Both the position numbers and the translations under genes were made by a program. Shown piece by piece: positions 3,441 through 52,107 of a stretch of DNA of 55,435 nt. The stretch covers positions 1 through 55,435 of IMG/VR virus record IMGVR_UViG_3300025326_000038; one strand, 5' to 3'. Below the pieces are notes generated by a model. That model made no database searches. It was not told where the DNA came from and was given only the letters and a program-made list of their open reading frames with translations. The DNA is from a virus. Its lineage: Duplodnaviria > Caudoviricetes. Numbering within the stretch: the first letter of the stretch is position 1; each line of letters opens with the position of its first letter.

Positions 3441-3485
3441 ATCAGAGGGCTTGATGCCGAACGCGGCAATCTGGGGTAGAAGGAA

Positions 3486-3508
3486 GCGCGCCCTAGCAGG
3501 AGTCCTGC
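3486..3508 (-). other. Candidate attP core resembling a degenerate tRNA 3' end
   Basis: Minus strand gcagg-act-cctgc-tagggcgcgc in the non-coding gap after int; identical at 49721-49743. Confidence 0.4.
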
Positions 3509-3644
3509 CAAGGACACCCCAGCTAGGTAATCAGGTACTTCGGCCAGGGGCCGCCTCTCCCGGGCGGTCTCTGGTCGCCTCTGTCGGACGTAGATTCGCT
3601 GCACATTTGCCTCACAGCGCCCCGTACAGGCTCCTGCACACGGC

Positions 3645-7133: not shown

Positions 7134-7175
7134 CTCGCCGCGAAGCGGCTCCGGCAGGCGGTGCTGCCGCTATGA
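7134..7175 (+). pseudogene. 3' remnant of the arm B DNA methyltransferase gene
   Basis: 39/42 nt identical to 52066-52107 (LAAKRLRQxVLPL*). Confidence 0.75.
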
Positions 7176-25268: not shown

Positions 25269-25943
25269 ATGGAAATAAAGCGCTGCAAGAAGTGCGGCGA
25301 AGAGAAGCCCCTGACCGAGTTTTATAAGGGGCGTCTGAATCGCGGTGGCTACATTCCTCGATGCAAGTCCTGCATCAAGGCGGTGATGGCGGCGTTCTAT
25401 CTAAAAAACAAAGACCGGATTCTATCTAGAAGCATGGCCTGGGCGAAGACAAATCATGTCCACGTTGCTGCATTGGCGATGGTTCGTAACCGTCGCCGTG
25501 GTGTGAAACCGAAGCGCGTGTTTGCCTCCGAAGAGGACAGGATGGCGGCTCGTGGTGATTACAAGCGGGTCTACGTAGAACGATACCCGGATCGTGTCAA
25601 TGCCGCGAAGGCCAGCTATGCGGCGAGGTTCCCTGAACGGATCAAGGCTTTTCTTGCTACCGCGACGGCTCGCCGCAGGGCCGCTCCTGGTGTCGTGACT
25701 GGAGCGGAATGGAAATCGCTCCTCATATTCTATGAACATCGATGCGGCCAATGTGGAGCGTCGGGCGAGAAACTGACCGTCGACCACTTCATCCCGATCA
25801 TCAAGGGTGGTCATCATTCGTGGGACAATGTCTGGCCACTCTGTCTCAAGTGCAATCTTCGGAAGGGTACCCGTATGCCGCTAGAAGCGCACCCGCCGCA
25901 CGTCACCGAACGACAGGAGGCCGCATGTCAGGCCCAAGCGTAA
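25269..25943 (+). CDS. HNH homing endonuclease
   Basis: CKKCGEEKPLTEFY...CKSC and CGQCG...LTVDHFIP...GG.H...N..PLC.KCN..KG; AT-richer. Confidence 0.9.
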   Translation: MEIKRCKKCGEEKPLTEFYKGRLNRGGYIPRCKSCIKAVMAAFYLKNKDRILSRSMAWAKTNHVHVAALAMVRNRRRGVKPKRVFASEEDRMAARGDYKRVYVERYPDRVNAAKASYAARFPERIKAFLATATARRRAAPGVVTGAEWKSLLIFYEHRCGQCGASGEKLTVDHFIPIIKGGHHSWDNVWPLCLKCNLRKGTRMPLEAHPPHVTERQEAACQAQA

Positions 25944-34557: not shown

Positions 34558-35247
34558 ATGCTGCTCTTTCCGTCACTCCACTTACGAACTGGACGACGAC
34601 TGTTCCACCTTCGTGGGAAGGGGTCTCCGCGCTCGGTTGGCCTCTCAGGTAGGCTTTACCTGACATGGGGAGTGTTGTTGCTGCTCGCCGCGCTGGCGAT
34701 CCCGGCCTCCGCGCAGACGCCCGCGGGCGTGTCCTGTCCTGTGTCGTGGTCGCTCAAGGAGTACAACGTCTACCTGGCGACCAGTCCCACCGATCCTGGG
34801 GTGAAGGTGGCCACGGTGCCCTCGGGCTTCGGACCCGCCGCGAGCTGGTCGTGGCCGTGTCCCACGGCAGCCGGGCAATACTATGTCCGCCTTGTCGCCG
34901 TCAATCTCTCGGGCGTGGAAGGCACGTCGTCTCCCGTCGTCGCCGTCGTCATTCTGCCGCCCGCGCCGCCCCCACCTCCACCCCCACCCCCGCCTCCTCC
35001 ACCTCCTCCACCTCCGCCGACAACCTCACTGCCCTCAGTCTGGACGCGGTGCGCGGACGAAAACGGCGTGTGCGCGTTTCAGGGGACGGCGGTCGTGCGC
35101 TACGGGGCCAACAGTGTCTACGTGCAGAAGACGCTGACCGATGGCACCCCGTGTACGAATGCCGTGTTTGGCGATCCGATTTTCGGAGTGTTCAAGCGCT
35201 GCGAGTACATTGATCCCGCCGCGCTCGTGGGGAGCCCGGGTCGGTGA
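34558..35247 (+). CDS. Secreted-type protein: signal peptide, FN3-like part, Pro18 linker, Cys lectin-like domain
   Basis: LLLLAALAIPASA-Q; YNVY...YYVRLVAVN; 18 prolines at 34966-35019; CADE..C...VRYG...C.N..FGDP..G..K.C. Confidence 0.65.
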   Translation: MLLFPSLHLRTGRRLFHLRGKGSPRSVGLSGRLYLTWGVLLLLAALAIPASAQTPAGVSCPVSWSLKEYNVYLATSPTDPGVKVATVPSGFGPAASWSWPCPTAAGQYYVRLVAVNLSGVEGTSSPVVAVVILPPAPPPPPPPPPPPPPPPPPPTTSLPSVWTRCADENGVCAFQGTAVVRYGANSVYVQKTLTDGTPCTNAVFGDPIFGVFKRCEYIDPAALVGSPGR

Positions 35248-35276: not shown

Positions 35277-36647
35277 ATGGCCCTCTCCCTCGGCGTCACC
35301 GCCGTTGCCTCCACCACGAGTGGCACCACAGTCACAACCCCCGCGAGGACGACGACCCCTGGGAGCACGATCGTTCTGTGCGGCGACTGGAACACGGGTG
35401 ATCCTTTTGTCTCCTTTACGGACTCCAAAGGGAATACGTGGACGCAGATCCAAACGGAGTTGGGTGCGAGTCCGAGGACCCGCATGTACTATGCGGAGAA
35501 CATTCTAGGCGGCACCAATCATACCTTCACGTTGACGATTACCAGTGCGGGCCAGCCGTCTATCTGGATGGTCGAGATTCGAGACGCCAAACTTGTCGGG
35601 GCCTTCGACCTCGGGGCCCGACAAGCGGATGCGGCCTCCCCCTTCACCTCGCCGGGGATCGCGACGACCGACGCGGACGAGTTTCTGGTCGGCTTCATGG
35701 GCGGCGATTCGGTGAGTAATCCGGCCACGCATACGGCGGGCGCGTCGATGACGCTCTTGGACCAAGTGACCAATGGCGCCTCCTTTTGGCCCGGCGCCAC
35801 GGCCTACCGCATTGTGACGGCAACGGGCACCTACAACAGTAGCTTTACCGAAGTCGGTGCCGGGAACGGTCGCGTGTGGATCGCGGCGTTCAAGGCGCCG
35901 CCCATTCAGTTCGTCAACGGCGGGAGCAACAAGACCACCGACAGTGCCCACTCGTCTCCCGTCGTCGTGACGATCCCGGCGACCGTCGCGGGCAACGATT
36001 TGGTCGTGATGGTGGAGAACGGGGAAGACCCGGCCGCGCTGCCGACGGTCTCCTCGGTCACCGCGACGGGTGCGACCTTCGTCCGTCAGGGCGGCGTGCA
36101 GAACACGAGTGGGACGGATGGGGTCAATGCGGAGTGTTGGGTGGCACGCAACGTTGCGGCCGGCATCACGTCGGTGTCCGTGGCATGGACCGCGGCCGCC
36201 GTGGGCACGGTCAGCGTGGCGGAATACTCCGGCGTCCAGGCGCTCGGGCCGGTGGTGACGGCGACGGGGAACGGGACCAGCGCGACGATCGCGCTGACCA
36301 CGCAGGATGCCGAAAACGTCGTGGTGGCCGGGCTGGGCGATGAAGACACCGCCCAGCCCGCCTTTTCCGCTGCGTCCAGCGGGACGTTCCGATCGACGCA
36401 GTATGCGCTCGGCGACGGCTCGCCTGATGTCAACGGCTGCCTGATCGACAAGGGCTCCGCGACCCCCGCGTCGGTCGTCTGTACGGTCGGGACCCCGGCC
36501 ACCGCCTCGCTGTGGGCGGCGGTGGCGCTGGAGCTGCGGAGCGTGGCGGGGGGGGCGTCGCTCACGCCGAACGCCGGCGCTACGGTGCTGGCTGGTGTCG
36601 CCCCGACCCGCGTCATCGGCACGATCCTCACCCCCACGACACCATGA
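35277..36647 (+). CDS. Two-domain beta-rich virion/adhesin protein with C-terminal TPxxG tag
   Basis: Thr/Ser/Ala-rich; TDSKGNTW, VAEYSGV; ends LTPNAGATVLAGVAPTRVIGTILTP. Confidence 0.7.
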   Translation: MALSLGVTAVASTTSGTTVTTPARTTTPGSTIVLCGDWNTGDPFVSFTDSKGNTWTQIQTELGASPRTRMYYAENILGGTNHTFTLTITSAGQPSIWMVEIRDAKLVGAFDLGARQADAASPFTSPGIATTDADEFLVGFMGGDSVSNPATHTAGASMTLLDQVTNGASFWPGATAYRIVTATGTYNSSFTEVGAGNGRVWIAAFKAPPIQFVNGGSNKTTDSAHSSPVVVTIPATVAGNDLVVMVENGEDPAALPTVSSVTATGATFVRQGGVQNTSGTDGVNAECWVARNVAAGITSVSVAWTAAAVGTVSVAEYSGVQALGPVVTATGNGTSATIALTTQDAENVVVAGLGDEDTAQPAFSAASSGTFRSTQYALGDGSPDVNGCLIDKGSATPASVVCTVGTPATASLWAAVALELRSVAGGASLTPNAGATVLAGVAPTRVIGTILTPTTP

Positions 36648-36659
36648 AAGGCTGAGCAG

Positions 36660-38099
36660 ATGACCGAGACCGGGCACGCGGGCTTCGAAGGCGCCGCCCC
36701 AGTTGTCACGATCGGCGCGGGCAATCCGGAGGCGCTCAAATATGGCAGGCTCTGGGCGCACCCTGAGTACCGCACGGTTGCGCCCGGGGAGCAGCTCGCC
36801 CAAGTGTTCCTCGCCCAGGCGCATCCGAAGCCCGGGGCGGAAGTCCTCGACTTCGGCTGCGGCACCGGCCGCGGCGCGCTCATGCTGGCGCTCCTCGGCG
36901 GGCTCAGGGTCACCATGCTCGATTTCGTGAACAACTGCCTCGACGAGGAGGTGCGCGCCATGCTGACGACGCAGGCGCACGCGCTCCGCTTCCTCAAGGC
37001 GGACCTCGAGCAGAAGCTCCCCGTCGCCGCGCCCTATGGATTCTGCACAGACGTCCTCGAACACATCCCGCCCGCCAAGGTGGACGCCGTCCTCAACAAC
37101 ATCCTGCTGGCCGCGCAACACGTCTTCTTCTCCATCTCCACGGTCGAGGACTCCTGCGGCGCATTGATCGGCGAGCCGCTCCATCTGAGCCTCCATCCCT
37201 TCGCGTGGTGGATGGAGCAATTCCGCAAGCGCGACTGCGTCGTCCACTGGTCGCAGGAGGTGGACGGCGCCTGCCTCTTCTACGTGTCGGCGTGGACCGC
37301 CGGGCCTGCGATCGTCGAGGCGGGGATTCTCAATGTGACCGATGAGCAGATCCGGGCGAACGTCCAGCACAACATCGCGCAGGGCTGGACGCAGGTGCAG
37401 CCGCATCCGACCAATGACATCGAAGTCATGATCCTCGGCGGTGGGCCGTCCATGCCGGCCTTCGAGGAAGAGATCAAGCAGCATCGCGCGCACGGCGTCA
37501 AGCTCATCACGCTCAACGGGGCGTACAATTGGGCGCTGGAGCACGGGCTCACCCCCTCCGCGCAGATCATCGTGGACGCGCGGGCGTTCAATGCGCGGTT
37601 CACCAAGCCGGTCATCGCCGGCTGCAAGTACCTCATCGCCTCCCAGTGCGATCCGGGTGTGTTCGAGGGACTGCCGATCGACCGCACGCTCATCTGGCAC
37701 ACGAGCACGGACCTCATCACGGATCTGCTCAACGCGCAGTACGAGAAGTGGTGGTACGTGCCCGGCGGGTCGACGGTGCTCCTCCGCGCGATCCCGCTGC
37801 TCCGTATGCTCGGGTTCACGCGGTTTCACCTGTACGGCTGCGATAGCTGTCTCGCGGCTGATGACGCGCATCATGCCTACGCACAACCCGAAAACGATGC
37901 AGCGGTTGTCGTGCCGCTCTCCGTCCAGGGCGACCGGATCTTCTACTGCCACCCGTGGATGATCGCGCAGGCAACCGAGCTACAAGATTTACTAAAAGTT
38001 TTGGGGGATGAGATAGAGATCAAGATTCGTGGCGATGGGCTCTTGGCGCATATACTCAATGTAGCCGCAGAGCTAGAGGACAATAAAGCAAATGCGTAA
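36660..38099 (+). CDS. SAM methyltransferase fused to a DUF115/MptE/Maf-like domain
   Basis: VLDFGCGTG and CTDVLEHIP; ILGGGPS, ITLNG, IVD, GGSTV..RA..L...LGF..FHLYG.D. Confidence 0.8.
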   Translation: MTETGHAGFEGAAPVVTIGAGNPEALKYGRLWAHPEYRTVAPGEQLAQVFLAQAHPKPGAEVLDFGCGTGRGALMLALLGGLRVTMLDFVNNCLDEEVRAMLTTQAHALRFLKADLEQKLPVAAPYGFCTDVLEHIPPAKVDAVLNNILLAAQHVFFSISTVEDSCGALIGEPLHLSLHPFAWWMEQFRKRDCVVHWSQEVDGACLFYVSAWTAGPAIVEAGILNVTDEQIRANVQHNIAQGWTQVQPHPTNDIEVMILGGGPSMPAFEEEIKQHRAHGVKLITLNGAYNWALEHGLTPSAQIIVDARAFNARFTKPVIAGCKYLIASQCDPGVFEGLPIDRTLIWHTSTDLITDLLNAQYEKWWYVPGGSTVLLRAIPLLRMLGFTRFHLYGCDSCLAADDAHHAYAQPENDAAVVVPLSVQGDRIFYCHPWMIAQATELQDLLKVLGDEIEIKIRGDGLLAHILNVAAELEDNKANA

Positions 38100-38871
38100 G
38101 GGGTCGTGTCATTCAGAGGAAGCGCGGGCGAAGAACGCCGCAGCCCACCATGGCCGCGTCCCCTGGAACAAAGGCATCAAAATGAATGCTGATCAATGTG
38201 TGAACTTTGGAAAACGCCGTGGTTTCGCTCCCTGGAACAAGGGGCTATCTATGGCGTCTCCATCGGCCGAGACATTGGCAAAGAGAAGTGCAGCGCTTCG
38301 TGGAAAACCAAAGAGCATCGAATGGCGTGCGAAGATCGCCGCAGCTCTTTTAGGGAAAGCAAAATCGTTCGAGGCTCGGATTAGGATGAGTACCGCAAAA
38401 AAGGGGAGACCCGCGCACAACAAAGGGAAAATGATGTCCCCGGAGCAGAGGGCAAATAGCGGCAGGCGCCCAGGCTCCATTCCTTGGAACAAGGGCATTC
38501 CGACAGGGATAAGCCCGATGCGCGGCCCGCGGCCAGAATACAACGGCGTGCGCTTTCGTTCGTCCTATGAAGTGCGATTTGCCAAGGCGTTGGATGCCAG
38601 AGGAATCGGATGGCAATACGAGCCAAAGCGATTTGTCTTAGGCTCATGTTCATACCTTCCTGATTTTTTCGTACCCGAGACTGGAGCATTCTGGGAGATC
38701 AAGGGGTGGCATAACGCCAGCTCGCAAATGAAGGCGAGGCTCTTCCGGGAGTTGTATCCGGAACACCCCTTGATCATTGCAACACACGACGTCATCACCA
38801 TGATGGAGGGATCGACAAATGGCAGTCGGCACGTGGAAGATCTACGCTCGCCTGGGCTAGTCGCGCAGTAA
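38092..38871 (+). CDS. Free-standing endonuclease: PWNKG/NUMOD3-like repeats + PD-(D/E)XK domain
   Basis: (P/A)(W/H)NKG x4; FRS.YE.RFA..LD..W.YEP...YLPDF.....EIKG; AT-richer. Confidence 0.8.
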   Translation: MRKGSCHSEEARAKNAAAHHGRVPWNKGIKMNADQCVNFGKRRGFAPWNKGLSMASPSAETLAKRSAALRGKPKSIEWRAKIAAALLGKAKSFEARIRMSTAKKGRPAHNKGKMMSPEQRANSGRRPGSIPWNKGIPTGISPMRGPRPEYNGVRFRSSYEVRFAKALDARGIGWQYEPKRFVLGSCSYLPDFFVPETGAFWEIKGWHNASSQMKARLFRELYPEHPLIIATHDVITMMEGSTNGSRHVEDLRSPGLVAQ

Positions 38872-39542
38872 TGCGCGATGGTAACGGCGTGAATTGTCGG
38901 GAACCCTACACGCGCAAGCGCAGGGGAATCCGCAGCCAAGCCGAGTAGGAATACTCGGAAGGTTCAGAGACTAGAGGGAGTAGGCCAGACCGGTCGAAAC
39001 CTCCACGAGCGCGCCGCATCCCGAGAGGGATGAAGAGATAGTCCCAGCCTCCGTGGAAACGCGGAGTGGCCGGATAAAGAGCCGGCTGAAGGCAAGGTCA
39101 TTTGAAGGCGAAGAAGTACCTCGGCGCGGGGACGATCACGCTCGGGGCTGGGGTGTTCAAGATGTCGCTCCACAAGACGAGCGCGAGCGCGGCGATCATC
39201 GTCCTCTCGACGCGCTCGACGTTCGCCTCGATCGGCTCGGAGATCTCGGCGCGCGGCGGCTATGTCGCGGGTGGGCGGAACATCGGCCCGGCGACGGGGC
39301 AGTGGACGGTCGGCGCGTCGGCGAAGCAGTACAAGTTCACCTACACGACGGCGGGGCTCGTGTTCACGGCCTCCGGCTCCTCGCTCATCAACATCCGGTT
39401 CGCGCTGATCCGGAATTCGACGGGCGCGGGCGCGGGCAAGGTGCTCTGCTTTGCCTCGCTGTCCTCAGCGCAGTTCACGATCGCTTCGCCAAACACGCTC
39501 TCCATTCTGCCGGCTGCGACGGGCGTCTTTACGCTGGCGTGA
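38819..39542 (+). CDS. Intron-split putative fibre subunit (exons 38819-38848 and 39105-39542; 155 aa)
   Basis: GGAGGG RBS; splicing gives MAVGTWKIYA|KAKKYLGAGTITLG..FKMSL...EIS..GGY.AGG. Confidence 0.82.
38849..39104 (+). ncRNA. ORF-less group I self-splicing intron (256 nt)
   Basis: P (aattgtcgggaa, 38892), Q (aatccgcagc, 38927), R (gttcagagacta, 38962), S (aagagatagtcc, 39033); hairpins P2, P6, P8, P9; exon ends in U, intron ends in G; P10 cgcct/aggcg. Confidence 0.92.
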
Positions 39543-39681
39543 CGTCCGACGCGCGTCGGCGGCCGCATGATGCGGGGCAGCGTCCGTCTCGACGGCGTCG
39601 GGGTCGTCCCGCGCGCCGATTGCCCGGCACCCCCATCCGCATCCGGCGCGCGGGCGCGTATGCCTAACAAAGGAGCCTCTC

Positions 39682-39999
39682 ATGCCTGACATCACGAATC
39701 CTCAAGTGGTCCGCTTCGCCAACGAACACGCCCGCGTCCTGTGCGACGCCTGGGCGACGTTCTACAACACCGCCAAAACGGCGACAACTGTCTGGGCCGG
39801 CCAGGGGCTCGGCGCGCTGGTGCCGAACACGGCCGACCTGATCGCCGACGGCTCCGACGTGGACGGCCGTGGGCGCATCACCGGCGCGGCGTTGACCTCG
39901 CTCAAGGCGTTGCTGGACGCCTTCATCGCGGATGCCGAAGCGGGAGGCAACGCCAAGCGGAACGCCTTCTTCGCGGCGGCGGTGAACCCGAGAGGCTAG
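39682..39999 (+). CDS. Hypothetical late protein
   Basis: AAGGAG RBS; helical. Confidence 0.7.
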   Translation: MPDITNPQVVRFANEHARVLCDAWATFYNTAKTATTVWAGQGLGALVPNTADLIADGSDVDGRGRITGAALTSLKALLDAFIADAEAGGNAKRNAFFAAAVNPRG

Positions 40000-40002
40000 A
40001 CG

Positions 40003-41250
40003 ATGGCACTTCCAGCTACAACCGTCTGGGAAGTCCGCACCGATGGCAACGATGCCAATGGCGGCGGGTTCGTCACCGGTGCGTCCGGCACGGATCGGTC
40101 GCAGCAGGCCGCGGCGCAGATCGCCTACACGGACCTCGTGATCGGCGGGACGACCACCGAGTTGACGAGCGCGGCGTTTCCCTTCTCAGCGGCGGAAGTC
40201 GGCAACATTCTGAACGTCACGGGCGGGACGGGGTTCACGACGGGGTGGTATCAGGTGGTCTCCGTTGCGGCGGGTGTCGCCACGATGGATCGGTCGGTCG
40301 GGACCGGCGGGAGCACGGGCGGGACGGGCAACCTCGGCGGGGCGTTTTTGACGATTGCCCAAGGGCTCACGCTCTCCACGGTCGCTGGGATGATGGTGTA
40401 TGTACGGGGAGGGACGTACAACATTACGACGGCGTTGTCGCCAGCAAGCCTTGGCGGGGCCTACCGCACACGCCTTGTGGGCTATGCGACGACGCGGGGC
40501 GATCTCGGACAACCGATCATTTCGGTTACGGCAGCCATAGATGGCTTGACTCCAGGACTTGGGTGGACGTTTGAGAATCTTGAATTGGACGGCACTTCGG
40601 TGGGTCTTAGAGGGGTGAACCCGACCACCGTACATGGAACACTGGTCAACTGTCACATTCACCATTTTGTGCAGTACGGTCTGTCGGCCTCTTACGAGTA
40701 TTGGTCATTGATACGCTGCGAAGTCGATCATAACAACAACGGGATATGGTCGAATGCCGTCGGTGGCGTCATGGATTGCTGGGTGCATGACAACACCAGC
40801 GACGGTGTTGCTGTGTTCACCACGGGTCGTGTCACGGGCAATGTGATCGCGAACAACGGCGGTCACGGCCTAATTTACAACTACGGCGGTCTGATCCTCA
40901 ATAACATCCTCTATGGTAATGGTGGGGATGGCATTCGCGCTACACAGTCCTACTCTTTCAACATCGGCGCGGGCGTTTGCGAGAATAATATCCTCGTCAA
41001 CAATGGCGGCTACGGGATCAATCAGCCGACCGCCCAGACCCACGCCGATTACCCATGGATCGACTACAACGCCTTCTACAACAACACGAGCGGGGCGCGG
41101 CAGAACGTCAACGCCTCGCCGCACGATGTGACGCTCACGGGCGATCCCTTCACAAACGCGGCGGGGGATGACTTCACTTTGAATAATACGGCTGGGGCAG
41201 GAGCCGCCTGTCGCGGTGCAGGTTTCCCCGGCACTCTACCGGGACTCTAG
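40003..41250 (+). CDS. Right-handed parallel beta-helix protein (receptor-binding/depolymerase-like)
   Basis: VYVRGGTY; repeated N.I..NG..GI rungs; DP.F......DF.L near the C-terminus. Confidence 0.85.
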   Translation: MALPATTVWEVRTDGNDANGGGFVTGASGTDRSQQAAAQIAYTDLVIGGTTTELTSAAFPFSAAEVGNILNVTGGTGFTTGWYQVVSVAAGVATMDRSVGTGGSTGGTGNLGGAFLTIAQGLTLSTVAGMMVYVRGGTYNITTALSPASLGGAYRTRLVGYATTRGDLGQPIISVTAAIDGLTPGLGWTFENLELDGTSVGLRGVNPTTVHGTLVNCHIHHFVQYGLSASYEYWSLIRCEVDHNNNGIWSNAVGGVMDCWVHDNTSDGVAVFTTGRVTGNVIANNGGHGLIYNYGGLILNNILYGNGGDGIRATQSYSFNIGAGVCENNILVNNGGYGINQPTAQTHADYPWIDYNAFYNNTSGARQNVNASPHDVTLTGDPFTNAAGDDFTLNNTAGAGAACRGAGFPGTLPGL

Positions 41251-41468: not shown

Positions 41469-42416
41469 ATGGCCGACACCTCAATTCAGCCCAACACCGG
41501 CCAGTTGGTGCTGGCTCGAGGCCATGCCATTCCGACCCCGCTTCGGGCCAGCCTTGAGATCACCGGCGCGGCCCCCTCGCTAATCCAGGGGACGGTGATC
41601 ATCCCGGGCACCGGCTCGCTGGAGTTCGGAGAGCTCGGAGGCCCAACACCTGGCACCGGGGCACTCGCGCTGATTGGCCAAACGCCGACGGTTCTCGTCG
41701 CCACCTTCCTGACGCCGGCCGCGGGCGCCGTGACCGTGGACGGGCTGGCGCCGGGCCGGGTAGTCGGCTCTCTGTTCGTCCCGGGGGTCGGGAGCCTGGT
41801 GCTCGCGGAGGGCAGCCCGAGCCCCGTCAGCGGCACGCTCCGAACCCCGGCTGCCGGAAGCCTGATCGTCTCCGGCGTCGCCCCCATCCTGGAAGTCGAT
41901 ACCCGCCTCATGGTGGCCTCTGGGAGCCTCCTGCTGACCGGGGAGGCTCCGACCATCGGCGGGGCGGTCCAGATTACCCCTGGGGCCGGTGCGCTCGTCC
42001 TGGCAGGGCAGACAGCCATCCTGGGCGGAGCGGTCCAGATCGTCCCTGGCACCGGGTTGCTGACCCTGGCGGGCCTCGAGCCGCGGCAGGACCGGGGGCT
42101 CTTCCCGGGGACGGGAGCGCTCGCGCTGGACGGGCTCGCTCCATCCCTGCGCACCGATCTCCGCCTGACGCCCGCAGCTGGCGGCTTGCTCCTGACCGGG
42201 CAAACGCTCCAGATCGGCGGGGCCGTCCAGATCGTGCCGGGGACGGGGCTTCTCACCCTCACGGGGCTGAGCCCGCTCCTGGCCATCCCATCGCCCCGGT
42301 TCATTGTCCCGGCCCGGGGGCGGGTCTACACGCTGACGGCCCGGGGGCGGGTCTACACGCTGACGGCCCGGGGGCGGGTCTACACCTTGACGGCGGAGCA
42401 CGAGGCGACGGATTGA
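41469..42416 (+). CDS. Repeat scaffold protein built of ~22-aa PxxGxLxLxGxxP units
   Basis: About 13 units; ends in (ARGRVYTLT)x3. Confidence 0.8.
   Translation: MADTSIQPNTGQLVLARGHAIPTPLRASLEITGAAPSLIQGTVIIPGTGSLEFGELGGPTPGTGALALIGQTPTVLVATFLTPAAGAVTVDGLAPGRVVGSLFVPGVGSLVLAEGSPSPVSGTLRTPAAGSLIVSGVAPILEVDTRLMVASGSLLLTGEAPTIGGAVQITPGAGALVLAGQTAILGGAVQIVPGTGLLTLAGLEPRQDRGLFPGTGALALDGLAPSLRTDLRLTPAAGGLLLTGQTLQIGGAVQIVPGTGLLTLTGLSPLLAIPSPRFIVPARGRVYTLTARGRVYTLTARGRVYTLTAEHEATD
42310..42394. repeat. 27-nt tandem repeat x3
   Basis: cggcccgggggcgggtctacacgctga; third copy has 2 substitutions. Confidence 0.93.
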
Positions 42417-45371: not shown

Positions 45372-45789
45372 CCTCAAAGCGCCGACCCTCGACCAGATCG
45401 CCTATCTCAAGCTCCGCCTCCGGACGATCCCGGACGAGTTGAACGTGGCCCGCGAGGCCCTCATCCGCCTCAGCGCCGAGGTCCGGGAGCAGAAGACAGG
45501 ACTCGCGGACCTCGAGGCAGAGGCCGCGGCCTTCATGCGCGCGCAGATGCTCGCCGAGGCCAAGAGCAAGAAGCCGACGGAGGCGGCACTCACCGCGGCG
45601 GTCAAGGTGGCGGTGGAGCAGCACGAAGGGTGCCGACGGTTGCGGACGGGGCTGCGCGAGGTCGAACTCCGCCGGGACGGAGCCGAGTTGACGGTCAAGC
45701 ATCTGACGGATCGGTTCTCAGCGCTTCAGTTCTACGCAGATCTCACGACCGCAGAGGTTCGGTTGCTCGTCGGAGGGCTCGGCGCATGA
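45364..45789 (+). CDS. Coiled-coil hypothetical protein
   Basis: GGAG RBS; heptad pattern. Confidence 0.6.
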   Translation: MSDLKAPTLDQIAYLKLRLRTIPDELNVAREALIRLSAEVREQKTGLADLEAEAAAFMRAQMLAEAKSKKPTEAALTAAVKVAVEQHEGCRRLRTGLREVELRRDGAELTVKHLTDRFSALQFYADLTTAEVRLLVGGLGA

Positions 45790-45998
45790 AGAAAGGCCTG
45801 TGTGATTGCGCCTCCCATGCGCCAACCGGCTTTCTGCAAAGCTCCGAGCGTCTGGCGACCGGAGAGCGGCGCTGGCAGTGCCCCCGCTGCCTCCAACCCT
45901 ATATCCTCGTGCGAGATGAATGGATCGCCGTGCGCCCGCATGGCAAACCGAAACCATCACTTCAGGGCCCCGTCTTTTCACCAACACAGGAGGTTCCC

Positions 45999-46787
45999 AT
46001 GGTTCCTTCGACACCCGCCGCGCCGACCACCGCCCTCGCCGTGATCCCACACGGCTTGCCGTTCTCCGAAGAGGAGTGGGCGGCGCTCTCACCCACGGAG
46101 CAGCAGGAAGCGATCGCCTTCTTCCGGGAGGAGAGCGCGGCGACGACGGAGGGAGTACCGATCACATTCAGTCGGGTCAAATACCCCACCTCCGGGGCGT
46201 CCTTCTGGGAAGTGCCGTCTGTGACTGGCGAGGCCGAAGCCGTGAAGGAAGTGGAAGGTGTTGTGGTGTTCAAGCAACTCATGCGCGGCTATTGGGAGAG
46301 TGCCGAGGTCACGAACACGCCGCCGACATGCTCCTCGAATGACGGCGTGGAACCGAAGCCGGGCCCAGGACGGCAGGCCGCAATCTGCACCGCCTGTCCG
46401 CACAGCCAATGGGGGAGTGGGAAAGAAGGCCGAGGGCAGGCGTGCAAGCAACGGCTCGCGGTCTTCTTCCTTCGTGAGAATGAGGAGATCCCGACGCTCC
46501 TTTCGCTTCCGCCAACGGCCATCAAGCCGTTCGGTGCCTATGCCGTGGGCCTTCGGCAGAAGAAGAGTGCGTTGATTGCGGTCACCACGGTTTTCGGATT
46601 GCAGGACGCCACCAACTCAACTGGCATCAAATACAAAGGGCTCGCCCTACGGATGGGCAAACCGCTGAGCTTTGCAGACATGAAGCGGGCTCGGGCAATC
46701 TCGGACGCATTTGAGAGCGCCATGGCCCAGCGCGGGATACAGGTGGACGAGGTCGCGGACGAACATCCCGAGGCCGAGGTTCTCTAA
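45999..46787 (+). CDS. Cys-rich ssDNA-binding/recombination-type protein, allele B
   Basis: AGGAGGT RBS; homologue of 28-792; frame open upstream to ATG 45786. Confidence 0.55.
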   Translation: MVPSTPAAPTTALAVIPHGLPFSEEEWAALSPTEQQEAIAFFREESAATTEGVPITFSRVKYPTSGASFWEVPSVTGEAEAVKEVEGVVVFKQLMRGYWESAEVTNTPPTCSSNDGVEPKPGPGRQAAICTACPHSQWGSGKEGRGQACKQRLAVFFLRENEEIPTLLSLPPTAIKPFGAYAVGLRQKKSALIAVTTVFGLQDATNSTGIKYKGLALRMGKPLSFADMKRARAISDAFESAMAQRGIQVDEVADEHPEAEVL

Positions 46788-46789
46788 CC

Positions 46790-47242
46790 ATGGCAACACG
46801 CTGCGAGTGCGGATGCGGGCAAACTACGAACAAGGCCATCAAGACCTCGACGCGCCAGGGGTACGTCAAGGGGCAACCCATGCGGTTTGTCCATGGGCAT
46901 CACGCACGCGTCGATGCGGTCATGGCAAAGCAGCGACAGATCGCACGGCGTGGAGGGCCCGCATCCCCCGCGTGGCGCGGCGGCCGTTCGGCCTCCCATG
47001 CGGGCGGATATGTCCGCGTGTATACGGGGAAGCGTGGGGCCCGGACGCTTGAACATCGGGCCATCATGGAGAAAACCCTAGGACGACAGCTTTTGGCGGA
47101 TGAAGTCGTCCACCATCGGAACGGGAACAGAAAAGACAACCGATTGGAGAATCTCGAAGTCCTGACGAATGCCGCGCACGTCAAGCGCCATACAGTGGAG
47201 CGCTGGGCGAAGACTCGGGCCGCCGGTAAACGATCGCTCTAA
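46790..47242 (+). CDS. HNH homing endonuclease (arm B only)
   Basis: CECGCG; WRGG...GYV; EHRAIME..LGR.L...EVVHH.NG...DNRLENL. Confidence 0.9.
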   Translation: MATRCECGCGQTTNKAIKTSTRQGYVKGQPMRFVHGHHARVDAVMAKQRQIARRGGPASPAWRGGRSASHAGGYVRVYTGKRGARTLEHRAIMEKTLGRQLLADEVVHHRNGNRKDNRLENLEVLTNAAHVKRHTVERWAKTRAAGKRSL

Positions 47243-48222: not shown

Positions 48223-48590
48223 TCCCCGTCCCCACGCTCGCCGAGGTCGTCGCCGACGGCACCAAGCTCCCCGATCTGCCGTTCACGGCACTCTGGGCGC
48301 TGCTCCGCGAGGTGGGGCACCTGGAGAAGGAGATCATCGCAGCGATGCTCCCGGCTGCCGGACGAGAGGCAGCCCAGATCGCACCTCAGGACCGCGCGCT
48401 GACCATCGGAGAGGCCGCCGAACGCCTCAGGATCTCTCCGGCAGCCATGACGAAGTGGCTTCGCAAACCGCCCTATAATGCCGCCGTCGTGGTCCGAAGC
48501 CGCACGTGCGTGCGTGTCTCCGCCCAGCGACTGGAGCAGATCCTTCTCGATCGCGGGGCGGGGCCCCGGAGAAAGGCGGCGGCGGGATGA
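48219..48590 (+). CDS. Excisionase-like HTH protein, allele B
   Basis: Homologue of 1984-2358. Confidence 0.7.
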   Translation: MIPVPTLAEVVADGTKLPDLPFTALWALLREVGHLEKEIIAAMLPAAGREAAQIAPQDRALTIGEAAERLRISPAAMTKWLRKPPYNAAVVVRSRTCVRVSAQRLEQILLDRGAGPRRKAAAG

Positions 48591-49675
48591 GGGGGCACGG
48601 GCGGATTTACCATCGTGGAGACAGCTTGTGGATTTCCTGGTATGCCAAGGGGGATCGCCGCGAGGCGGTCAGCACGCTGGTCGGCAAGCCCGCCGGCAGC
48701 GTCACCTGGGACGACGCCATCAAGGCGCTCAAGCGCCGGCTCGAGCAGAAGCGGGAGCAGCTCCTGCGCGGCTCCATCCTGCCGAAGCGCACGGAGCGCC
48801 TGACCGTGACGCAGCTCCTCGCGGAGTACAAGACTCACCGCCTAATCCAGGGCGTCAAGCGCCCGGTGGACTTCGCCTGCACGATCAAAGCGCTCGGCGC
48901 CTGGTGGGGGCATCTCGTGCCCGCCCGGCTGACGACGGAGGACCTCGAGCGGGAGATCCAGGGCAAGCTCACCAAGGGCTTCGCCCGGGGGACCATCGCG
49001 CAGCGCCTCAGCGGGCTCTACGCGGCGCTCCGGTGGGCCAAAGACCGGCTGCCGAGGATCCCGGACAAGCCGCGGATCTCCGTGCCACTGGCACCCAAGG
49101 CGGTGTGGACGCCGGCCGAGGTTGACGCGCTCTGCGCCGAGGCCAAGCCCTGGCTCGCGGACATCGTGCGCTTCGGGCAGCTGACCGGGTGGCGGATCTC
49201 GGAGGTCCTCGACCTCTCCTGGGACCGCGTGGACAGCAAGCGCGGCCTCCTCTTCCTGGACGCGACAAAAACCGACGATCCACGGGTGCGGCCGATCGAG
49301 CCGGCCATGGCGGATCTCCTCGCCCGGCGGACGACGGCCCGCCGGCTGGGCTGCGCCCTGGTGTTCCACGTGGATGGGTTGCCGGTGGGGGATGACCGCT
49401 TCCACCGGGCGTTCCGGGCGGCGTGTGGCCGGGCGAAGCTCGGCGTAAGACGCTTCCACGCCTTCAGGAACACCGCCTATGACATCTTGCTCTTGAACGG
49501 CGTCGACCTCTTCACGGCCATGGAGCTGATCGGGCACAAGTCGCTCAGCTCGGCGCGCCGGTACAGTCGGCAGAACGTCGACCGGATGCGCGGGGCGCTT
49601 GAGCGGGTCGAGGCAGCACGGACGGCGGCCAAGCCGAACAATTCCAGCACAGCAGTCCTGCCCTTCACCCGCTGA
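48587..49675 (+). CDS. int: Tyrosine integrase, allele B
   Basis: Near-identical to 2355-3440; catalytic motifs intact. Confidence 0.93.
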   Translation: MRGHGRIYHRGDSLWISWYAKGDRREAVSTLVGKPAGSVTWDDAIKALKRRLEQKREQLLRGSILPKRTERLTVTQLLAEYKTHRLIQGVKRPVDFACTIKALGAWWGHLVPARLTTEDLEREIQGKLTKGFARGTIAQRLSGLYAALRWAKDRLPRIPDKPRISVPLAPKAVWTPAEVDALCAEAKPWLADIVRFGQLTGWRISEVLDLSWDRVDSKRGLLFLDATKTDDPRVRPIEPAMADLLARRTTARRLGCALVFHVDGLPVGDDRFHRAFRAACGRAKLGVRRFHAFRNTAYDILLLNGVDLFTAMELIGHKSLSSARRYSRQNVDRMRGALERVEAARTAAKPNNSSTAVLPFTR

Positions 49676-49879: not shown

Positions 49880-50362
49880 GTGACCACCCCCGACATCGGC
49901 TCCCAGCGGCCCAGGCTGTGCCGCTACGACGGCTTTGCTCTCGAGCTGGACACAGTGATCGCCCGGACGTCGACCGACGCCGGCTGGCCCGCGGTGGCCC
50001 TGTGGCGGTGTCGTCTGGGCCATAGCCACCGTGAGGGAGAGCCGGCGGTGGCCACCCGCCGCAAGGCCTCGTGGACGCGGAAGCCCTGCGCCGTGTGCGG
50101 TCAATCTTTGCCCAGAGATCCGCGATTCCACGGCTCCGGCGGCCGCAAGTATTGCTCCGGTCCCTGCACGGCCTTCGTGGCTCGTGCGCGCGGGCTGTGG
50201 CTCTGGCACCACGGGCCGCCGTTCGTGATCGAGGCACAGCCCTGGTACAAGGGCCCGCTCTACGCCGCCGCCACCCTCCCGCCCCTCGACCCGCTCGCCG
50301 GGCGGATGCCGAGGGACTGGGCGGCGGGGTGGGCGAGGGTGCATGGCGAGGGGTCGGAGTGA
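49880..50362 (+). CDS. Zn-binding hypothetical protein, allele B
   Basis: Homologue of 3645-4142. Confidence 0.7.
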   Translation: MTTPDIGSQRPRLCRYDGFALELDTVIARTSTDAGWPAVALWRCRLGHSHREGEPAVATRRKASWTRKPCAVCGQSLPRDPRFHGSGGRKYCSGPCTAFVARARGLWLWHHGPPFVIEAQPWYKGPLYAAATLPPLDPLAGRMPRDWAAGWARVHGEGSE

Positions 50363-52107
50363 CGCCGTATTACCAGGACGCCGCGGTCACGCTCTACCGC
50401 GGGGATGCGCTCGCCATCCTGCGCGAACTGCCCGACGCTGTCGCGCAGACCTGCGTCACCAGTCCACCGTACTGGGGCTTGCGCGACTACGGGACAGTGA
50501 CGTGGGAGGGAGGAGAGGCGGAGTGCGGACATACGAAGGGGAGCGAGCAGAAGCGCACATGGGGACCCGGTAGCACCGGCTCTTCCACGCTGAACGGGCG
50601 ACCCGGCAACGACTCCCATGAGCGAGAAGGGTGGAAGGGTGGCGTATGCGGGAACTGCGGCGCCCGCCGCATCGACACCCAGCTCGGCCTCGAACCCACG
50701 CCAGAAGCCTACGTCGCCGACCTCGTCGCCGTGTTCCGCGAGGTCTGGCGCGTGCTTCGGGATGACGGGACGCTCTGGCTGAATTTAGGGGATAGCTATG
50801 CAGCGGATCGCGGTGGAACGTGTATGCCATCCGAAACTCTCGCGGGAGGCGTGAATGGACAGGGAGAGGCCACAGCCTATTCCGACCCAAAACGCGGGCG
50901 GGTGAGGCATGGAGGTAGACAGGCGCACCGGGACGCGCCGTCCATAGGTCTGAAACATAAAGACCTCGTCGGCATCCCCTGGCGCGTCGCCTTCGCGCTC
51001 CAGCAGCCGTACTACACCGGCAGCATCAAGTGCGTCGAGGATCGGATCTGGCTCGCGGCTATGCTGGACGCCGAGGGATGCCTGTTCATCCACAAGCGCA
51101 AGGCGGGGCAGCACAACGGCCAGGGCTACTACCGGACGAACGACAACTTCGGGCCGGGCGTCGAGATCAGCAACACGTCGCTTGCCTTGGTCGAGCGGAT
51201 CATGGCGCTCGTGGGGAAAGGCTCCATCTGCTCGCAAGGCCCAGACGAGAACCAGCGTAGGAAGCAGCGCATCTATCGCTGGAACCTCCGCACCATCGAG
51301 TGCCGTGACTTTGTCCGCGAGCTGTACCCATACCTCGTCGCCAAGCAACAGCAGGCTCGTATCCTGATCGGTTGCCCATCATCGGGAGAACGAGCCGAGG
51401 CTGCCCACGCTGCGCTGATCGCGCTCCATCGCACCGGGCAGTCAGACGTGGATTTCCCTGCGCCCGCGTCGATGCTAGAGCCTGGGTGGTATCTAAGGTC
51501 GGACATCATATGGGCAAAATGCAACCCGATGCCGGAGAGCGTGACGGATCGGCCGACGAAGGCGCATGAATACCTCTTCCTGCTGGCGAAGCGGGAGCGG
51601 TACTACTACGACGCGGAGGCGATCGCGGAGCGTGTCACGGCATCCACGGTCGAGCGGTTGTCACAGTCAACCCTTGACAAGCAGGCAGGATCCTACCGCG
51701 TGCCGGGCAAGACGAATGGGCCGATGAAGGCAGTAGGGAAAGGCGGCGTCAATGCCTTCCGGGGGCAAGGCCATTTCCGAGACGGCGACAATGGGCCAGC
51801 GAACAGGGAGGGCAGAAACATGAAAGACATCGGCACAGGAGCGACCCGCAACCGCCGCACGGTCTGGGAGATCGCCACGCAGCCATATCCCGAGGCGCAC
51901 TTCGCCACGTTCCCGGTGGACCTCGTCAAGCCGTGCGTGCTCGCGGGGTCGAAGGTCGGCGACACCGTGCTCGACCCCTTCGCCGGGAGCGGGACGACCT
52001 GCTACGTCGCCAAGGAACTCGGGCGCCGGGCCATCGGCATCGACCTCAAGGCGGAGTATCTCGACCTCGCGGCGAAGCGGCTCCGGCAGGAGGTGTTGCC
52101 GCTATGA
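50359..52107 (+). CDS. Beta-class N4-C/N6-A DNA methyltransferase with in-frame LAGLIDADG insertion
   Basis: VTSPPYW (motif IV), WYLRSDIIW, HEYLFLL, HFATFP, VLDPFAGSGTT (motif I). Confidence 0.92.
   Translation: MTPYYQDAAVTLYRGDALAILRELPDAVAQTCVTSPPYWGLRDYGTVTWEGGEAECGHTKGSEQKRTWGPGSTGSSTLNGRPGNDSHEREGWKGGVCGNCGARRIDTQLGLEPTPEAYVADLVAVFREVWRVLRDDGTLWLNLGDSYAADRGGTCMPSETLAGGVNGQGEATAYSDPKRGRVRHGGRQAHRDAPSIGLKHKDLVGIPWRVAFALQQPYYTGSIKCVEDRIWLAAMLDAEGCLFIHKRKAGQHNGQGYYRTNDNFGPGVEISNTSLALVERIMALVGKGSICSQGPDENQRRKQRIYRWNLRTIECRDFVRELYPYLVAKQQQARILIGCPSSGERAEAAHAALIALHRTGQSDVDFPAPASMLEPGWYLRSDIIWAKCNPMPESVTDRPTKAHEYLFLLAKRERYYYDAEAIAERVTASTVERLSQSTLDKQAGSYRVPGKTNGPMKAVGKGGVNAFRGQGHFRDGDNGPANREGRNMKDIGTGATRNRRTVWEIATQPYPEAHFATFPVDLVKPCVLAGSKVGDTVLDPFAGSGTTCYVAKELGRRAIGIDLKAEYLDLAAKRLRQEVLPL
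51007..51480 (+). mobile_element. Single-motif LAGLIDADG endonuclease domain lacking intein motifs
   Basis: WLAAMLDAEGC, VEISNT, YRW, LYPYLVAK..QA; splits VAFALQ / GWYLRSD; boundaries approximate. Confidence 0.82.

What the first reader, a model, noticed from the sequence alone, without database searches (positions are those of the whole stretch)
38092..39107. The intron sits inside the stop codon of an overlapping upstream endonuclease gene
Seen: the endonuclease ORF overlaps exon 1 in another frame. Unspliced, it runs into the intron and stops at TAA 38869-38871, inside the GTAA loop of P2. Spliced, T38848 + AA39105-06 forms TAA in the nuclease frame, so one splice edits two genes. Inference: the nuclease ended there before the intron arrived; its target may span this junction so that it mobilises the ORF-less intron (collaborative homing); ribosomes crossing P1/P2 could also gate splicing and fibre expression. 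The junction stop codon could be chance.
Basis: partly seen in the sequence, partly recalled or inferred. Interest (0 to 1): 0.72.

Follow-up and report, generated by a model that had tools for sequence, protein, structure and literature searches.

The report
Homing nuclease beside ORF-less phage intron
A selfish nuclease gene sits directly upstream of a self-splicing intron in a phage tail-region gene, and the stop codon that splicing creates for the nuclease is a side effect of where the intron sits, not a designed feature.

Summary
A group I intron (38849-39104, Rfam 68.6 bits) interrupts a conserved 155-aa tail-module gene after codon 10. The upstream ORF (38092-38871) overlaps exon 1 in another frame. 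Unspliced, it stops at TAA 38869-71 in the P2 GUAA loop. Spliced, it would read T38848+AA39105-6 = TAA.

The junction stop is not special. An intron at this site needs U at -1, and exon 2 begins with a conserved Lys codon (AAR), so U|AA follows automatically. L005 has the intron at the same site and no nuclease, yet also carries T|AA. Of five related loci where the nuclease frame runs into the intron, only the window has a junction stop. In six distinct nuclease-plus/intron-minus relatives the nuclease stops before the fibre ATG.

The ORF is a free-standing homing endonuclease: NUMOD3 repeats plus a T7-endonuclease-I-like domain with an intact catalytic tetrad. Seven of eight intron-bearing loci have a nuclease gene immediately upstream, against 1 of 26 intron-less loci found through the fibre gene. 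The window carries a foreign low-GC tract from the upstream gene's 3' end to the intron's 3' end. This fits collaborative or trans homing, a known arrangement. The cleavage site is unknown.

The parts
36660..38099 (+). Upstream gene: SAM-methyltransferase domain plus MptE-like domain. It lies immediately upstream of the fibre-like gene in all 30 related viral loci.
   Evidence: Pfam PF13649 1.2e-8 and PF01973 1e-12. tblastn found it upstream in 30 of 30 loci.
37972..39104 (.). Tract of foreign (lower G+C) composition: the 3' end of the upstream gene, the nuclease gene, exon 1 and the intron.
   Evidence: GC falls from about 0.65-0.70 to 0.52-0.55. GC3 of the upstream gene is 0.88-0.96 but 0.52 in its last 150 nt. 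Nuclease GC3 is 0.60 and exon 2 GC3 is 0.92. Contigs of related strains in 3 runs stop matching at 37972, and one contig in a fourth run joins 37972 to 39144.
38092..38871 (+). Free-standing homing endonuclease ORF, 259 aa. Residues 1 to about 145 carry NUMOD3-type repeats. Residues about 150-240 form a T7-endonuclease-I-like PD-(D/E)XK domain.
   Evidence: Pfam NUMOD3 8.5e-7 and Phage_endo_I 5.8e-6. PDB 1m0d/2pfj, T7 endo I, 1.7e-6. E160, D191, E202 and K204 are invariant in 32 family members. AF2 domain pLDDT 93-98. Top Foldseek hits are T7 endo I.
38819..38871 (+). Non-conserved tail of the nuclease ORF. It overlaps the fibre start codon, exon 1 and the first 23 nt of the intron.
   Evidence: The nuclease alignment loses conservation after E239. 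Residues 245-259 have pLDDT below 50.
38805..38810 (+). GGAGGG, a likely ribosome-binding site of the fibre-like gene, lying inside the nuclease ORF.
   Evidence: Read from the sequence, 8 nt upstream of ATG38819. This is inference.
38819..38848 (+). Exon 1 of the fibre-like gene (MAVGTWKIYA). It ends in U38848, the 5' splice site.
   Evidence: Contiguous N-termini in intron-less relatives. P1 pairs G38846-C38857, C38847-G38856, U38848.G38855 and C38849-G38854.
38849..39104 (+). ORF-less group I intron, 256 nt. Features: internal guide GGGC at 38854-57; host-frame stop TAG at 38858-60; P2 at 38862-77 with the nuclease-frame TAA at 38869-71 in its loop; a second nuclease-frame stop, TGA, at 38890-92; terminal G at 39104.
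   Evidence: Rfam RF00028 68.6 bits. 22 of 71 consensus pairs show compensatory changes in 6 introns. The guide covaries with the exon across 8 introns.
39105..39542 (+). Exon 2 of the fibre-like gene (KAKKYLGAG...). Bases 39106-39110 (AGGCG) can pair with intron 38849-53 (CGCCU) as P10.
   Evidence: 30 relatives at 64-97% identity. P10 covaries in L005, CGCUU with AAGCG. PHROG 644, function unknown.

Best explanation
The window is a metagenomic phage contig.

The intron. A self-splicing, ORF-less group I intron sits 30 nt into a conserved 155-aa tail-module gene.

The nuclease. Immediately upstream, wedged between that gene and a conserved methyltransferase/MptE-like gene, lies a free-standing homing endonuclease. 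It has NUMOD3 DNA-binding repeats and a T7-endonuclease-I-like catalytic domain. Its conserved domain ends before the fibre start codon. Its reading frame has no stop of its own, so it drifts through exon 1 and is closed by the first stop the intron offers.

The junction stop. The TAA formed at the ligated junction is a by-product of three things: the obligatory U at the 5' splice site, the Lys codon that opens exon 2, and the frame the nuclease happens to use. It is not a conserved or selected device.

Mobility (inferred, not shown). The nuclease cuts nuclease-less relatives somewhere in this short interval. Repair from the nuclease-bearing genome then copies the nuclease gene, exon 1 and the intron as one tract. 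The intron, which has no mobility gene, therefore rides along by collaborative or trans homing. Once the intron is present, its early stops make the nuclease's own stop dispensable. That would explain why the overlap is seen only in intron-bearing loci.
For: Intron:
- Rfam 68.6 bits.
- The junction matches intron-less homologues exactly.
- 22 of 71 pairs are compensatory.
- Guide and exon covary in 8 introns. GGUC pairs with GAU in L003, L006, L010, L103 and L193. GGGC pairs with GCU in the window, L005 and L199.

Nuclease:
- NUMOD3 plus an endo-I-like domain.
- The catalytic tetrad is invariant in 32 of 32 aligned family members.
- It is sporadic at a fixed locus, present in 4 of the 31 loci found through the fibre gene (the window plus 3 of the 30 viral loci) and in 0 of 9 MAG loci.

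Forced stop:
- L005 has T|AA without any nuclease.
- Only 1 of 5 overlapping nuclease frames has a junction stop.

Co-mobility:
- 7 of the 8 intron-plus loci seen have a nuclease gene directly upstream: 6 of the endo-I type and 1 HNH_3, in L006.
- Among loci found through the fibre gene the split is 4 of 5 against 1 of 26 (p=0.0008).
- The low-GC tract covers exactly the interval from the upstream gene's 3' end to the intron's 3' end.
- Related strains diverge at 37972.
- The window and L003 are sisters on the upstream-gene tree (support 100/100). Yet their nucleases are only 44% identical (tblastn, residues 93-259) and their introns sit 7 nt apart.

Overlap only where the intron is present:
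- 5 of 6 intron-plus loci against 0 of 6 distinct intron-minus loci (p=0.015).
Against: - No cleavage, splicing or expression data exist.
- Six distinct nuclease-plus/intron-minus loci (L031, L194, L195, L196, L197=L198, L201) show that the nuclease persists without the intron. The intron is therefore not required for self-immunity, and the target need not be the insertion site.
- L005 keeps the intron with no nuclease gene.
- The nuclease-domain tree is unresolved (1 of 20 inner branches well supported). The window's nearest nuclease domain, L194 at 68% identity, comes from an intron-less locus. Co-inheritance of nuclease and intron is therefore not demonstrated.
- The association counts are not phylogenetically independent, and part of the sample was found through the nuclease itself.
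- The sequence at the insertion site does not visibly distinguish nuclease-plus/intron-minus alleles from the others.
Confidence: 0.6

Rival explanations
1. The nuclease homes on its own ('intron-less homing'). Its target lies in the conserved 3' end of the upstream methyltransferase/MptE gene or in the intergenic spot it occupies. The intron is then an unrelated neighbour, at most dragged along occasionally by co-conversion.
For: - Six distinct nuclease-plus/intron-minus loci exist.
- In the window the last ~150 nt of the upstream gene are recoded, with GC3 0.52 against about 0.9, while still encoding the conserved GDGLLAHIL motif. The drop is smaller in L003 and L010.
- Related strains diverge exactly at 37972.
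- T4 MobE acts this way, nicking near but not at the intron site (PMC2790892, passages read).
Against: - It does not by itself explain why 7 of 8 intron-bearing loci carry a nuclease gene, including an unrelated HNH type.
- A cut anywhere in this interval lies within about 1.1 kb of the intron, so the intron would still be co-converted. In practice this rival merges with trans homing.
Confidence: 0.28
2. The junction stop is adaptive. By ending the nuclease frame exactly at the ligated junction, splicing keeps ribosomes that translate the nuclease from running out of frame across the fibre message. One splice thus tidies two genes.
For: - In L003, L010 and L193 the spliced message would extend the nuclease frame by 170, 105 and 166 codons across exon 2.
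- The window avoids this.
Against: - It is seen in 1 of 5 overlapping loci.
- It is fully explained by U(-1) plus the Lys AAR codon.
- It is also present in nuclease-less L005.
- The 7-residue difference lies in a non-conserved, disordered tail.
Confidence: 0.05
3. Nuclease turnover. The intron once carried its own endonuclease gene and lost it. The upstream free-standing nucleases are later, independent arrivals at a recombination hot spot. Barth et al. 2023 proposed this as an alternative origin of such loci.
For: - Two unrelated nuclease types, endo-I-like and HNH_3, occupy the same spot.
- Nucleases of sister phages are only 44% identical (tblastn, residues 93-259).
- The hypothesis is stated in PMC10448857 (passages read).
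Against: - All 8 introns seen are short (233-266 nt) and ORF-less, with no remnant of an internal ORF.
- The metagenome pattern scan turned up no ORF-bearing intron in this gene. Among its hits only L103 lies in this gene, and its intron is ORF-less.
Confidence: 0.07

Closest known systems
Collaborative homing: cyanophage S-PM2 F-CphI with the psbA intron, and T3/T7-like phages (Zeng, Bonocora & Shub 2009; Bonocora & Shub 2009). Known to me here only through passages in PMC6083498 and PMC3984707.
   Same: [quoted passage not shown] In both cases the nuclease is derived from a Holliday-junction-resolvase type of enzyme: Endo VII motif there, T7 endo I-like here.
   Different: - No cleavage data here.
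- The nuclease lies upstream, only 30 nt of exon from the intron, and its ORF runs into the ribozyme.
- The catalytic domain is PD-(D/E)XK/endo-I-like with NUMOD3 repeats.
- Many relatives carry the nuclease without the intron.
Vibrio phage ICP1 large terminase: a T5orf172 nuclease gene adjacent to a short N-terminal exon, with an empty intron (PMC10448857, passages read).
   Same: A structural or packaging gene split after a very short first exon, an empty intron, and a free-standing nuclease gene directly beside the short exon.
   Different: - A different nuclease family and a different host gene.
- Splicing was shown there by RNA-seq and RT-PCR. Here there is none.
[quoted passage not shown]
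   Same: A neighbouring free-standing nuclease can carry a non-mobile intron by co-conversion because the two lie within recombination distance.
   Different: - MobE is an HNH enzyme and nicks away from the insertion site.
- The T4 intron holds a defunct endonuclease ORF, whereas the intron here is ORF-less.
T7 endonuclease I (gene 3 resolvase; PDB 1m0d, 1fzr, 2pfj).
   Same: The catalytic domain aligns over about 80 residues at E 1.7e-6, with E, D and ExK at the positions of Glu20, Asp55, Glu65 and Lys67. The residue numbers are partly recalled and are consistent with the E65K mutant chain 1fzr. T7 endo I gives the top structural matches.
   Different: - About 150 residues of NUMOD3 repeats at the N-terminus.
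- Sporadic presence among close relatives.
- Foreign base composition.
- The window's protein scores below Pfam's cut-off (26.4 against 29.1 bits).

Membership tests
Group I intron (Rfam RF00028) | Covariance-model score at or above the curated gathering score | tested here: met
   68.6 bits against 50, model positions 1-253 of 253. Homologous introns in L193 and L199 each score 66.1 bits.
Group I intron (Rfam RF00028) | U at the 5' splice site forming a U.G wobble with an internal guide (P1), and a terminal G | tested here: met
   U38848.G38855 lies within a 4-bp P1, and G39104 is the last intron base. The pair next to the wobble covaries, C-G against A-U, in 6 aligned introns. The same holds in L193 and L199 by inspection.
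Group I intron (Rfam RF00028) | Exon ligation restores the host reading frame | tested here: met
   The ligated product MAVGTWKIYA|KAKKYLG equals the uninterrupted N-terminus of L004 and matches the 25 intron-less relatives.
Group I intron (Rfam RF00028) | Self-splicing activity | not testable with these tools
   No RNA run was listed. Splicing rests on sequence and covariation only.
Free-standing homing endonuclease | Intact nuclease active site plus a sequence-reading DNA-binding module | tested here: met
   E160, D191, E202 and K204 are invariant in 32 of 32 family members. NUMOD3 at 8.5e-7, above its cut-off.
Free-standing homing endonuclease | Sporadic presence at one locus among close relatives, with a foreign-looking flanking tract | tested here: met
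   Endo-I-type nuclease in 4 of the 31 loci found through the fibre gene (the window plus 3 of the 30 viral loci) and in 0 of 9 MAG loci. Low-GC tract 37972-39104.
Free-standing homing endonuclease | Site-specific cleavage of alleles that lack it | not testable with these tools
   Needs a cleavage assay.
Collaborative homing pair (sensu Zeng/Bonocora/Shub) | [quoted passage not shown] | not testable with these tools
   Indirect evidence only. For: 7 of 8 intron loci have an adjacent nuclease gene. Against: 6 distinct nuclease-plus/intron-minus loci exist.
Phage_endo_I (Pfam PF05367) / T7 endonuclease I | Pfam score at or above the gathering score | tested here: not met
   The window's protein scores 26.4 bits against a cut-off of 29.1. 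Its homologues in L003 and L010 pass, at 32.8 and 32.6 bits. I therefore describe it as 'endo-I-like' and do not file it as a member.
Phage_endo_I (Pfam PF05367) / T7 endonuclease I | Same fold and same catalytic residues | tested here: inconclusive
   Residues align. T7 endo I chains are the top Foldseek hits with probability 1.00, but at E 1.8e-3 and high rmsd. The crystal form is domain-swapped whereas the model is a monomer.
   Seen in 1 of 5 loci where the nuclease frame enters the intron. T|AA is also present in nuclease-less L005.

The most novel reading that the evidence does not exclude
Nuclease gene, 23-30-nt exon 1 and intron form one mobile cassette, caught between 'free-standing' and 'intron-encoded'. 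In 5 of 6 such loci the nuclease ORF is terminated only by stops inside the ribozyme. A correctly ended nuclease is then made only from unspliced RNA, which ties nuclease output to splicing state. The same intron lineage has also moved its insertion site by 7 nt. The move rests on a one-base change in its internal guide (GGUC to GGGC), which retargets P1 from GAU| to GCU|. This may have happened on entering an allele whose best guide match lay downstream. NUMOD3 plus endo-I-like proteins would then be an undescribed homing-endonuclease family derived from a second type of junction resolvase.
Probability: 0.15. Interest if true: 0.65.

Novelty: new member of a known kind. Interest (0 to 1): 0.38.

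Why it matters
The headline claim, an intron sitting inside a stop codon so that one splice edits two genes, is explained away as a positional by-product.

What remains is a useful natural series for studying how ORF-less introns spread. Related uncultured phages show all four states at one locus:
- nuclease and intron together;
- nuclease alone;
- intron alone;
- neither.

The series also contains two unrelated nuclease types at the same spot and two intron sites 7 nt apart, with matching guide changes. It offers direct substrates for testing collaborative against trans homing. It also points to a NUMOD3 plus T7-endo-I-like protein family that has no functional name in any source searched here. 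Where the 72 relatives carry a source name it is almost always 'hypothetical protein', with two generic exceptions. No cultured-phage record covers 80% or more of the protein (0 of 58).

Tried and rejected
- **RNA evidence.** No RNA holder was listed, so splicing and expression could not be examined. The four DNA runs laid are contigs only.
- **Host-gene function.** No Pfam family for exon 2 or for the full-length L004 homologue. PHROG 644, 'unknown function', at 5e-4. No PDB sequence match for the profile. The AF2 model has pLDDT 64. Foldseek found nothing in the PDB at E<=0.001. BFVD gave only weak hits to uncharacterised proteins and 'tail collar fibre' entries. There was no homologue in 50,697 cultured-phage records. 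'Fibre' therefore remains a guess from gene neighbourhood.
- **Nuclease-domain tree.** Built to test whether intron-linked nucleases form one clade. It is unresolved: 1 of 20 inner branches is well supported.
- **Target-site differences.** I looked by eye for differences at the insertion site between nuclease-plus/intron-minus alleles and the others. Nothing diagnostic emerged.
- **Promoter and terminator scan of 36400-40100.** It found 0 promoter-like sites and no plus-strand terminator. This is consistent with co-transcription but is not evidence for it.
- **Strict intron-core pattern in viral contigs.** It returned only the 4 contigs already known.
- **Looser pattern in metagenomes.** It hit at least 118 stretches, mostly other introns of the same broad type in other genes. 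Only L103 is this locus.
- **Calls that gave nothing.** One locus, L033, was dropped from the nuclease alignment because my coordinates included stops.
- **Not consulted.** Supplementary files of the papers cited, which may list further collaborative-homing loci.
- **L014.** The 86-aa ORF between the two genes was not scanned against Pfam.
Full report
**What the window is.** The window is a whole IMG/VR virus record of 55,435 bp, estimated 73% complete. It carries integrases, a large terminase, a portal, a head protease/capsid protein and minor tail proteins. The finding lies in the tail region, downstream of a minor-tail-like gene (35277-36647; PHROG 553). No related gene was found in 50,697 cultured-phage records. 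Nine relatives lie on MAG contigs binned to Nitrospirae, Gammaproteobacteria and others, so the host is not established.

**The observation.**
- Rfam finds one group I intron in the window, at 38834-39066 (68.6 bits, gathering score 50, full model).
- Reading the sequence: ATG38819...GCT38848 encodes MAVGTWKIYA. The intron runs 38849-39104 and ends in G. AAG39105 opens KAKKYLGAG..., which runs to the stop at 39540-42.
- Thirty related viral loci were fetched with exon 2. In 25 of them the gene is uninterrupted. The closest intron-less one, L004, reads MAVGTWKIYA|KAKKYLGAG, which fixes the junction.
- The upstream ORF 38092-38871 is in the frame that starts a codon at T38848.
- Unspliced, that frame stops at TAA 38869-71.
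- A script reading the frame across the exon join gives the junction codon TAA and no further codons, so 252 aa instead of 259.
- The TAA at 38869-71 lies in the GUAA loop of a hairpin, 38862-67 paired with 38872-77. Four of its six pairs show compensatory changes among six homologous introns.

**Is the intron real and functional-looking?**
- Six homologous introns give a consensus fold in which 22 of 71 pairs carry compensatory changes.
- P1 contains the U.G wobble at the splice site.
- The neighbouring pair covaries with the exon. Guide GGUC pairs with exon GAU| in L003, L006, L010, L103 and L193. Guide GGGC pairs with exon GCU| in the window, L005 and L199.
- P10 also covaries: window CGCCU with AGGCG, L005 CGCUU with AAGCG.
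- In all 8 introns the host-gene frame meets a stop within four codons of the splice site.
- No RNA data were available, so splicing itself is inferred.

**What the upstream ORF is.**
- Pfam gives NUMOD3 (8.5e-7) and Phage_endo_I (5.8e-6; 26.4 bits, just under the 29.1 cut-off).
- PHROGs gives 'Holliday junction resolvase', 'endonuclease' and 'homing endonuclease' families.
- Residues 155-231 align to T7 endonuclease I structures (1m0d at 1.7e-6, also 2pfj and 1fzr). E160, D191, E202 and K204 fall on the enzyme's acidic/lysine active-site positions. The 1fzr chain is the form with K at the position of E202.
- These four residues are invariant in 32 of 32 aligned family members.
- An AlphaFold model built on that alignment has pLDDT 93-98 over residues 150-240. 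T7 endo I chains are its best PDB matches, followed by Bax1 and the I-Bth0305I homing-endonuclease domain.
- A database search found 72 relatives, many with NUMOD3 plus Phage_endo_I. Where a source gives a name it is almost always 'hypothetical protein', with two generic exceptions.
- In cultured phages only the nuclease domain is matched. It is annotated as resolvase or T7-like endonuclease, and 0 of 58 records cover 80% of the protein.

NUMOD3 repeats, an intact active site, foreign base composition and sporadic distribution together make this a free-standing homing endonuclease rather than the phage's housekeeping resolvase.

**Why the junction stop is not special.**
1. At this insertion site the three bases are fixed for other reasons. 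The 5' splice site needs U. Exon 2 opens with Lys11, which is K in 22 of the 27 relatives aligned there. L005 has its intron at the same site and no nuclease gene, yet also reads GCT|AAA.
2. The nuclease's conserved domain ends near residue 239, upstream of the fibre ATG. The remaining ~20 residues are not conserved and are modelled as disordered.
3. The feature does not recur. Six loci have an endo-I-type nuclease next to the intron (window, L003, L010, L103, L193, L199). In five of them the nuclease frame runs through exon 1 into the intron, stopping 23, 45, 167, 48 and 195 nt inside it. Only the window has a junction stop. Splicing would extend the frame by 170, 105, 166 and 4 codons in L003, L010, L193 and L199.
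4. In the six distinct nuclease-plus/intron-minus loci the nuclease has its own stop upstream of the fibre gene. In L194, L195 and L196 that stop lies 1-2 nt before the ATG. In L201 and L031 it lies 24 and 74 nt before it. In L197=L198 it lies about 245 nt upstream of the conserved start of the fibre sequence, which there carries an N-terminal extension.

So there is no sign that the nuclease 'ended there before the intron arrived'. The contrast of 5 of 6 overlapping with the intron against 0 of 6 without it (p=0.015) suggests the reverse order. Once the intron supplies early stops, the nuclease's own stop can be lost. In the window these are TAA 38869-71 and an in-frame TGA 38890-92 in the invariant GUGAAUUG. 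This is an inference, and the loci are not independent.

- All 30 viral relatives have the methyltransferase/MptE-like gene directly upstream of the fibre-like gene.
- Among the 31 loci found through the fibre gene, 5 carry the intron: the window, L003, L005, L006 and L010.
- Four of these five also have a nuclease gene between the two genes. It is endo-I type in the window, L003 and L010. In L006 it is an unrelated HNH_3 enzyme (1.9e-12). L005 has none.
- Of the 26 intron-less loci only L031 has a nuclease. This gives Fisher p=0.0008, or 0.0003 when the 9 MAG loci (all negative) are added.
- Searching with the nuclease family found further copies in the same context. L193 and L199 have the intron (Rfam 66.1 bits each). 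L194-L198 and L201 lack it.
- One metagenome contig, L103, also has both nuclease and intron.
- Overall, 7 of the 8 intron-bearing loci have an adjacent nuclease gene.
- On a tree of the upstream gene the intron is patchy. L006 groups (97/94) with the intron-less L007-L009. The window and L003 are sisters (100/100), yet their nucleases are 44% identical by tblastn over residues 93-259, or 58% over MAFFT-aligned columns, and their introns sit at different sites.

**A foreign tract.**
- G+C drops from about 0.65-0.70 to 0.52-0.55 between about 37950 and 38850, and is 0.60 in the intron.
- GC3 of the upstream gene is 0.88-0.96 along its length, 0.72 in the block before last and 0.52 in the last 150 nt.
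- Nuclease GC3 is 0.60. Exon 2 returns to 0.92 from its first codons.
- High-GC relatives without the nuclease keep 0.84-0.90 to the end of the upstream gene.
- In public DNA runs that hold this phage, contigs of related strains match up to 37972 and then diverge in three runs. In a fourth run one contig joins 37972 to 39144.

So the 3' end of the upstream gene, the nuclease, exon 1 and the intron look like one imported block. This is what nuclease-initiated gene conversion would leave. It does not say where the cut was.

**How it most likely works.**
- Shown: a complete, covarying ribozyme at a junction that restores the host gene; an intact nuclease of a homing type; co-occurrence; and a foreign tract.
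- Inferred: in mixed infections the nuclease cuts relatives that lack it. Repair then copies the block, and the intron is carried along because it lies 30 nt beyond the nuclease ORF's conserved end.
- Two published variants fit. One is collaborative homing, where the cut is at the insertion site and the intron protects its carrier (passages in PMC6083498 and PMC3984707). The other is trans homing as with T4 MobE, where the cut is nearby (PMC2790892).
- The many nuclease-plus/intron-minus loci favour a target that does not depend on the intron for immunity. I therefore put the exact-junction target at about 0.3, and co-mobility of some kind at about 0.6.
- ICP1's terminase, with a nuclease gene beside a short first exon and an empty intron, is a close published parallel (PMC10448857).

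**Ribosome gating.** Both frames that enter the intron are closed within 23 nt: TAG 38858-60 for the fibre frame and TAA 38869-71 for the nuclease frame. Both lie before the catalytic core. This matches the general rule, recalled from work on T4 introns and listed in the references of PMC3984707, that early stops keep ribosomes out of the core. Nothing here tests a regulatory role.

**Verdict.** Its striking reading is not supported. The locus is a new example of a known arrangement, with some features worth a bench test.

Noticed in passing
window 38839-38860 and 39095-39112; L003 3725-4003; L005 3736-4008; L006, L010, L103, L193, L199: The same intron lineage (84-89% identical) occupies two sites 7 nt apart in the same gene. 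In the window and L005 it follows TAC GCT. In L003, L006, L010, L103, L193 and L199 it follows AAG AT or AAG CT. The guide differs by one base (GGGC against GGUC), matching exon GCU| against GAU|. L199 has GGGC with GCU at the upstream site, so a guide of that kind entering an AAGAUCUACGCU allele would find its match 7 nt downstream.
   Followed up: partly
window 25269-25943: An ORF inside the tail module matches PHROG 'endonuclease VII' (4e-34) and many HNH families. Its GC3 is 0.62, against 0.85-0.89 in its neighbours. It is probably a second free-standing homing endonuclease.
   Followed up: no
window 46790-47242, 7172-7639 and 50071-52107: Further nuclease-type genes: an HNH endonuclease (PHROG 20891, 9e-20), an endonuclease/resolvase-like ORF, and a DNA methyltransferase with an HNH-like segment.
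   Followed up: no
window 28-792 and 45630-46787; 2355-3440 and 48506-49675: Two copies each of a PHROG 23155 protein and of a tyrosine integrase lie about 45 kb apart. The record may hold a repeated end or two adjacent elements.
   Followed up: no
window 36660-38099: The gene conserved upstream of the fibre-like gene in every relative fuses a SAM-methyltransferase domain to an MptE-like domain (PF01973). From memory, that domain also occurs in flagellin-glycosylating Maf proteins, which would suggest a virion-protein-modifying enzyme. This was not tested.
   Followed up: no
L016 3500-3706; L022 3703-3900; L031 2878-3120; L010 2232-2387; L005 within 3106-3642: A small conserved ORF of about 65 aa (motif PPTGKVVI...YQGGVTKxEIGG) lies between the upstream gene and the fibre-like gene in several relatives. 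It is absent from the window and from L003, where the nuclease abuts the upstream gene. It has no Pfam family.
   Followed up: partly
L197 / L198 (identical), about 245 nt before the conserved fibre start: The nuclease is followed by a terminator-like hairpin. The fibre-like gene has lost its usual ATG and is fused to an N-terminal extension of about 45 aa.
   Followed up: no
L176 216-436 and 1059-1284: A 1.7-kb metagenome contig carries two introns related to the window's (78% and 68% identity) in a different, unidentified gene.
   Followed up: no
window 34558-35247 and 41469-42416: One ORF contains a run of about 20 prolines. Another, a repeat-rich tail-type ORF, ends in three tandem copies of ARGRVYTLT.
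   Followed up: no
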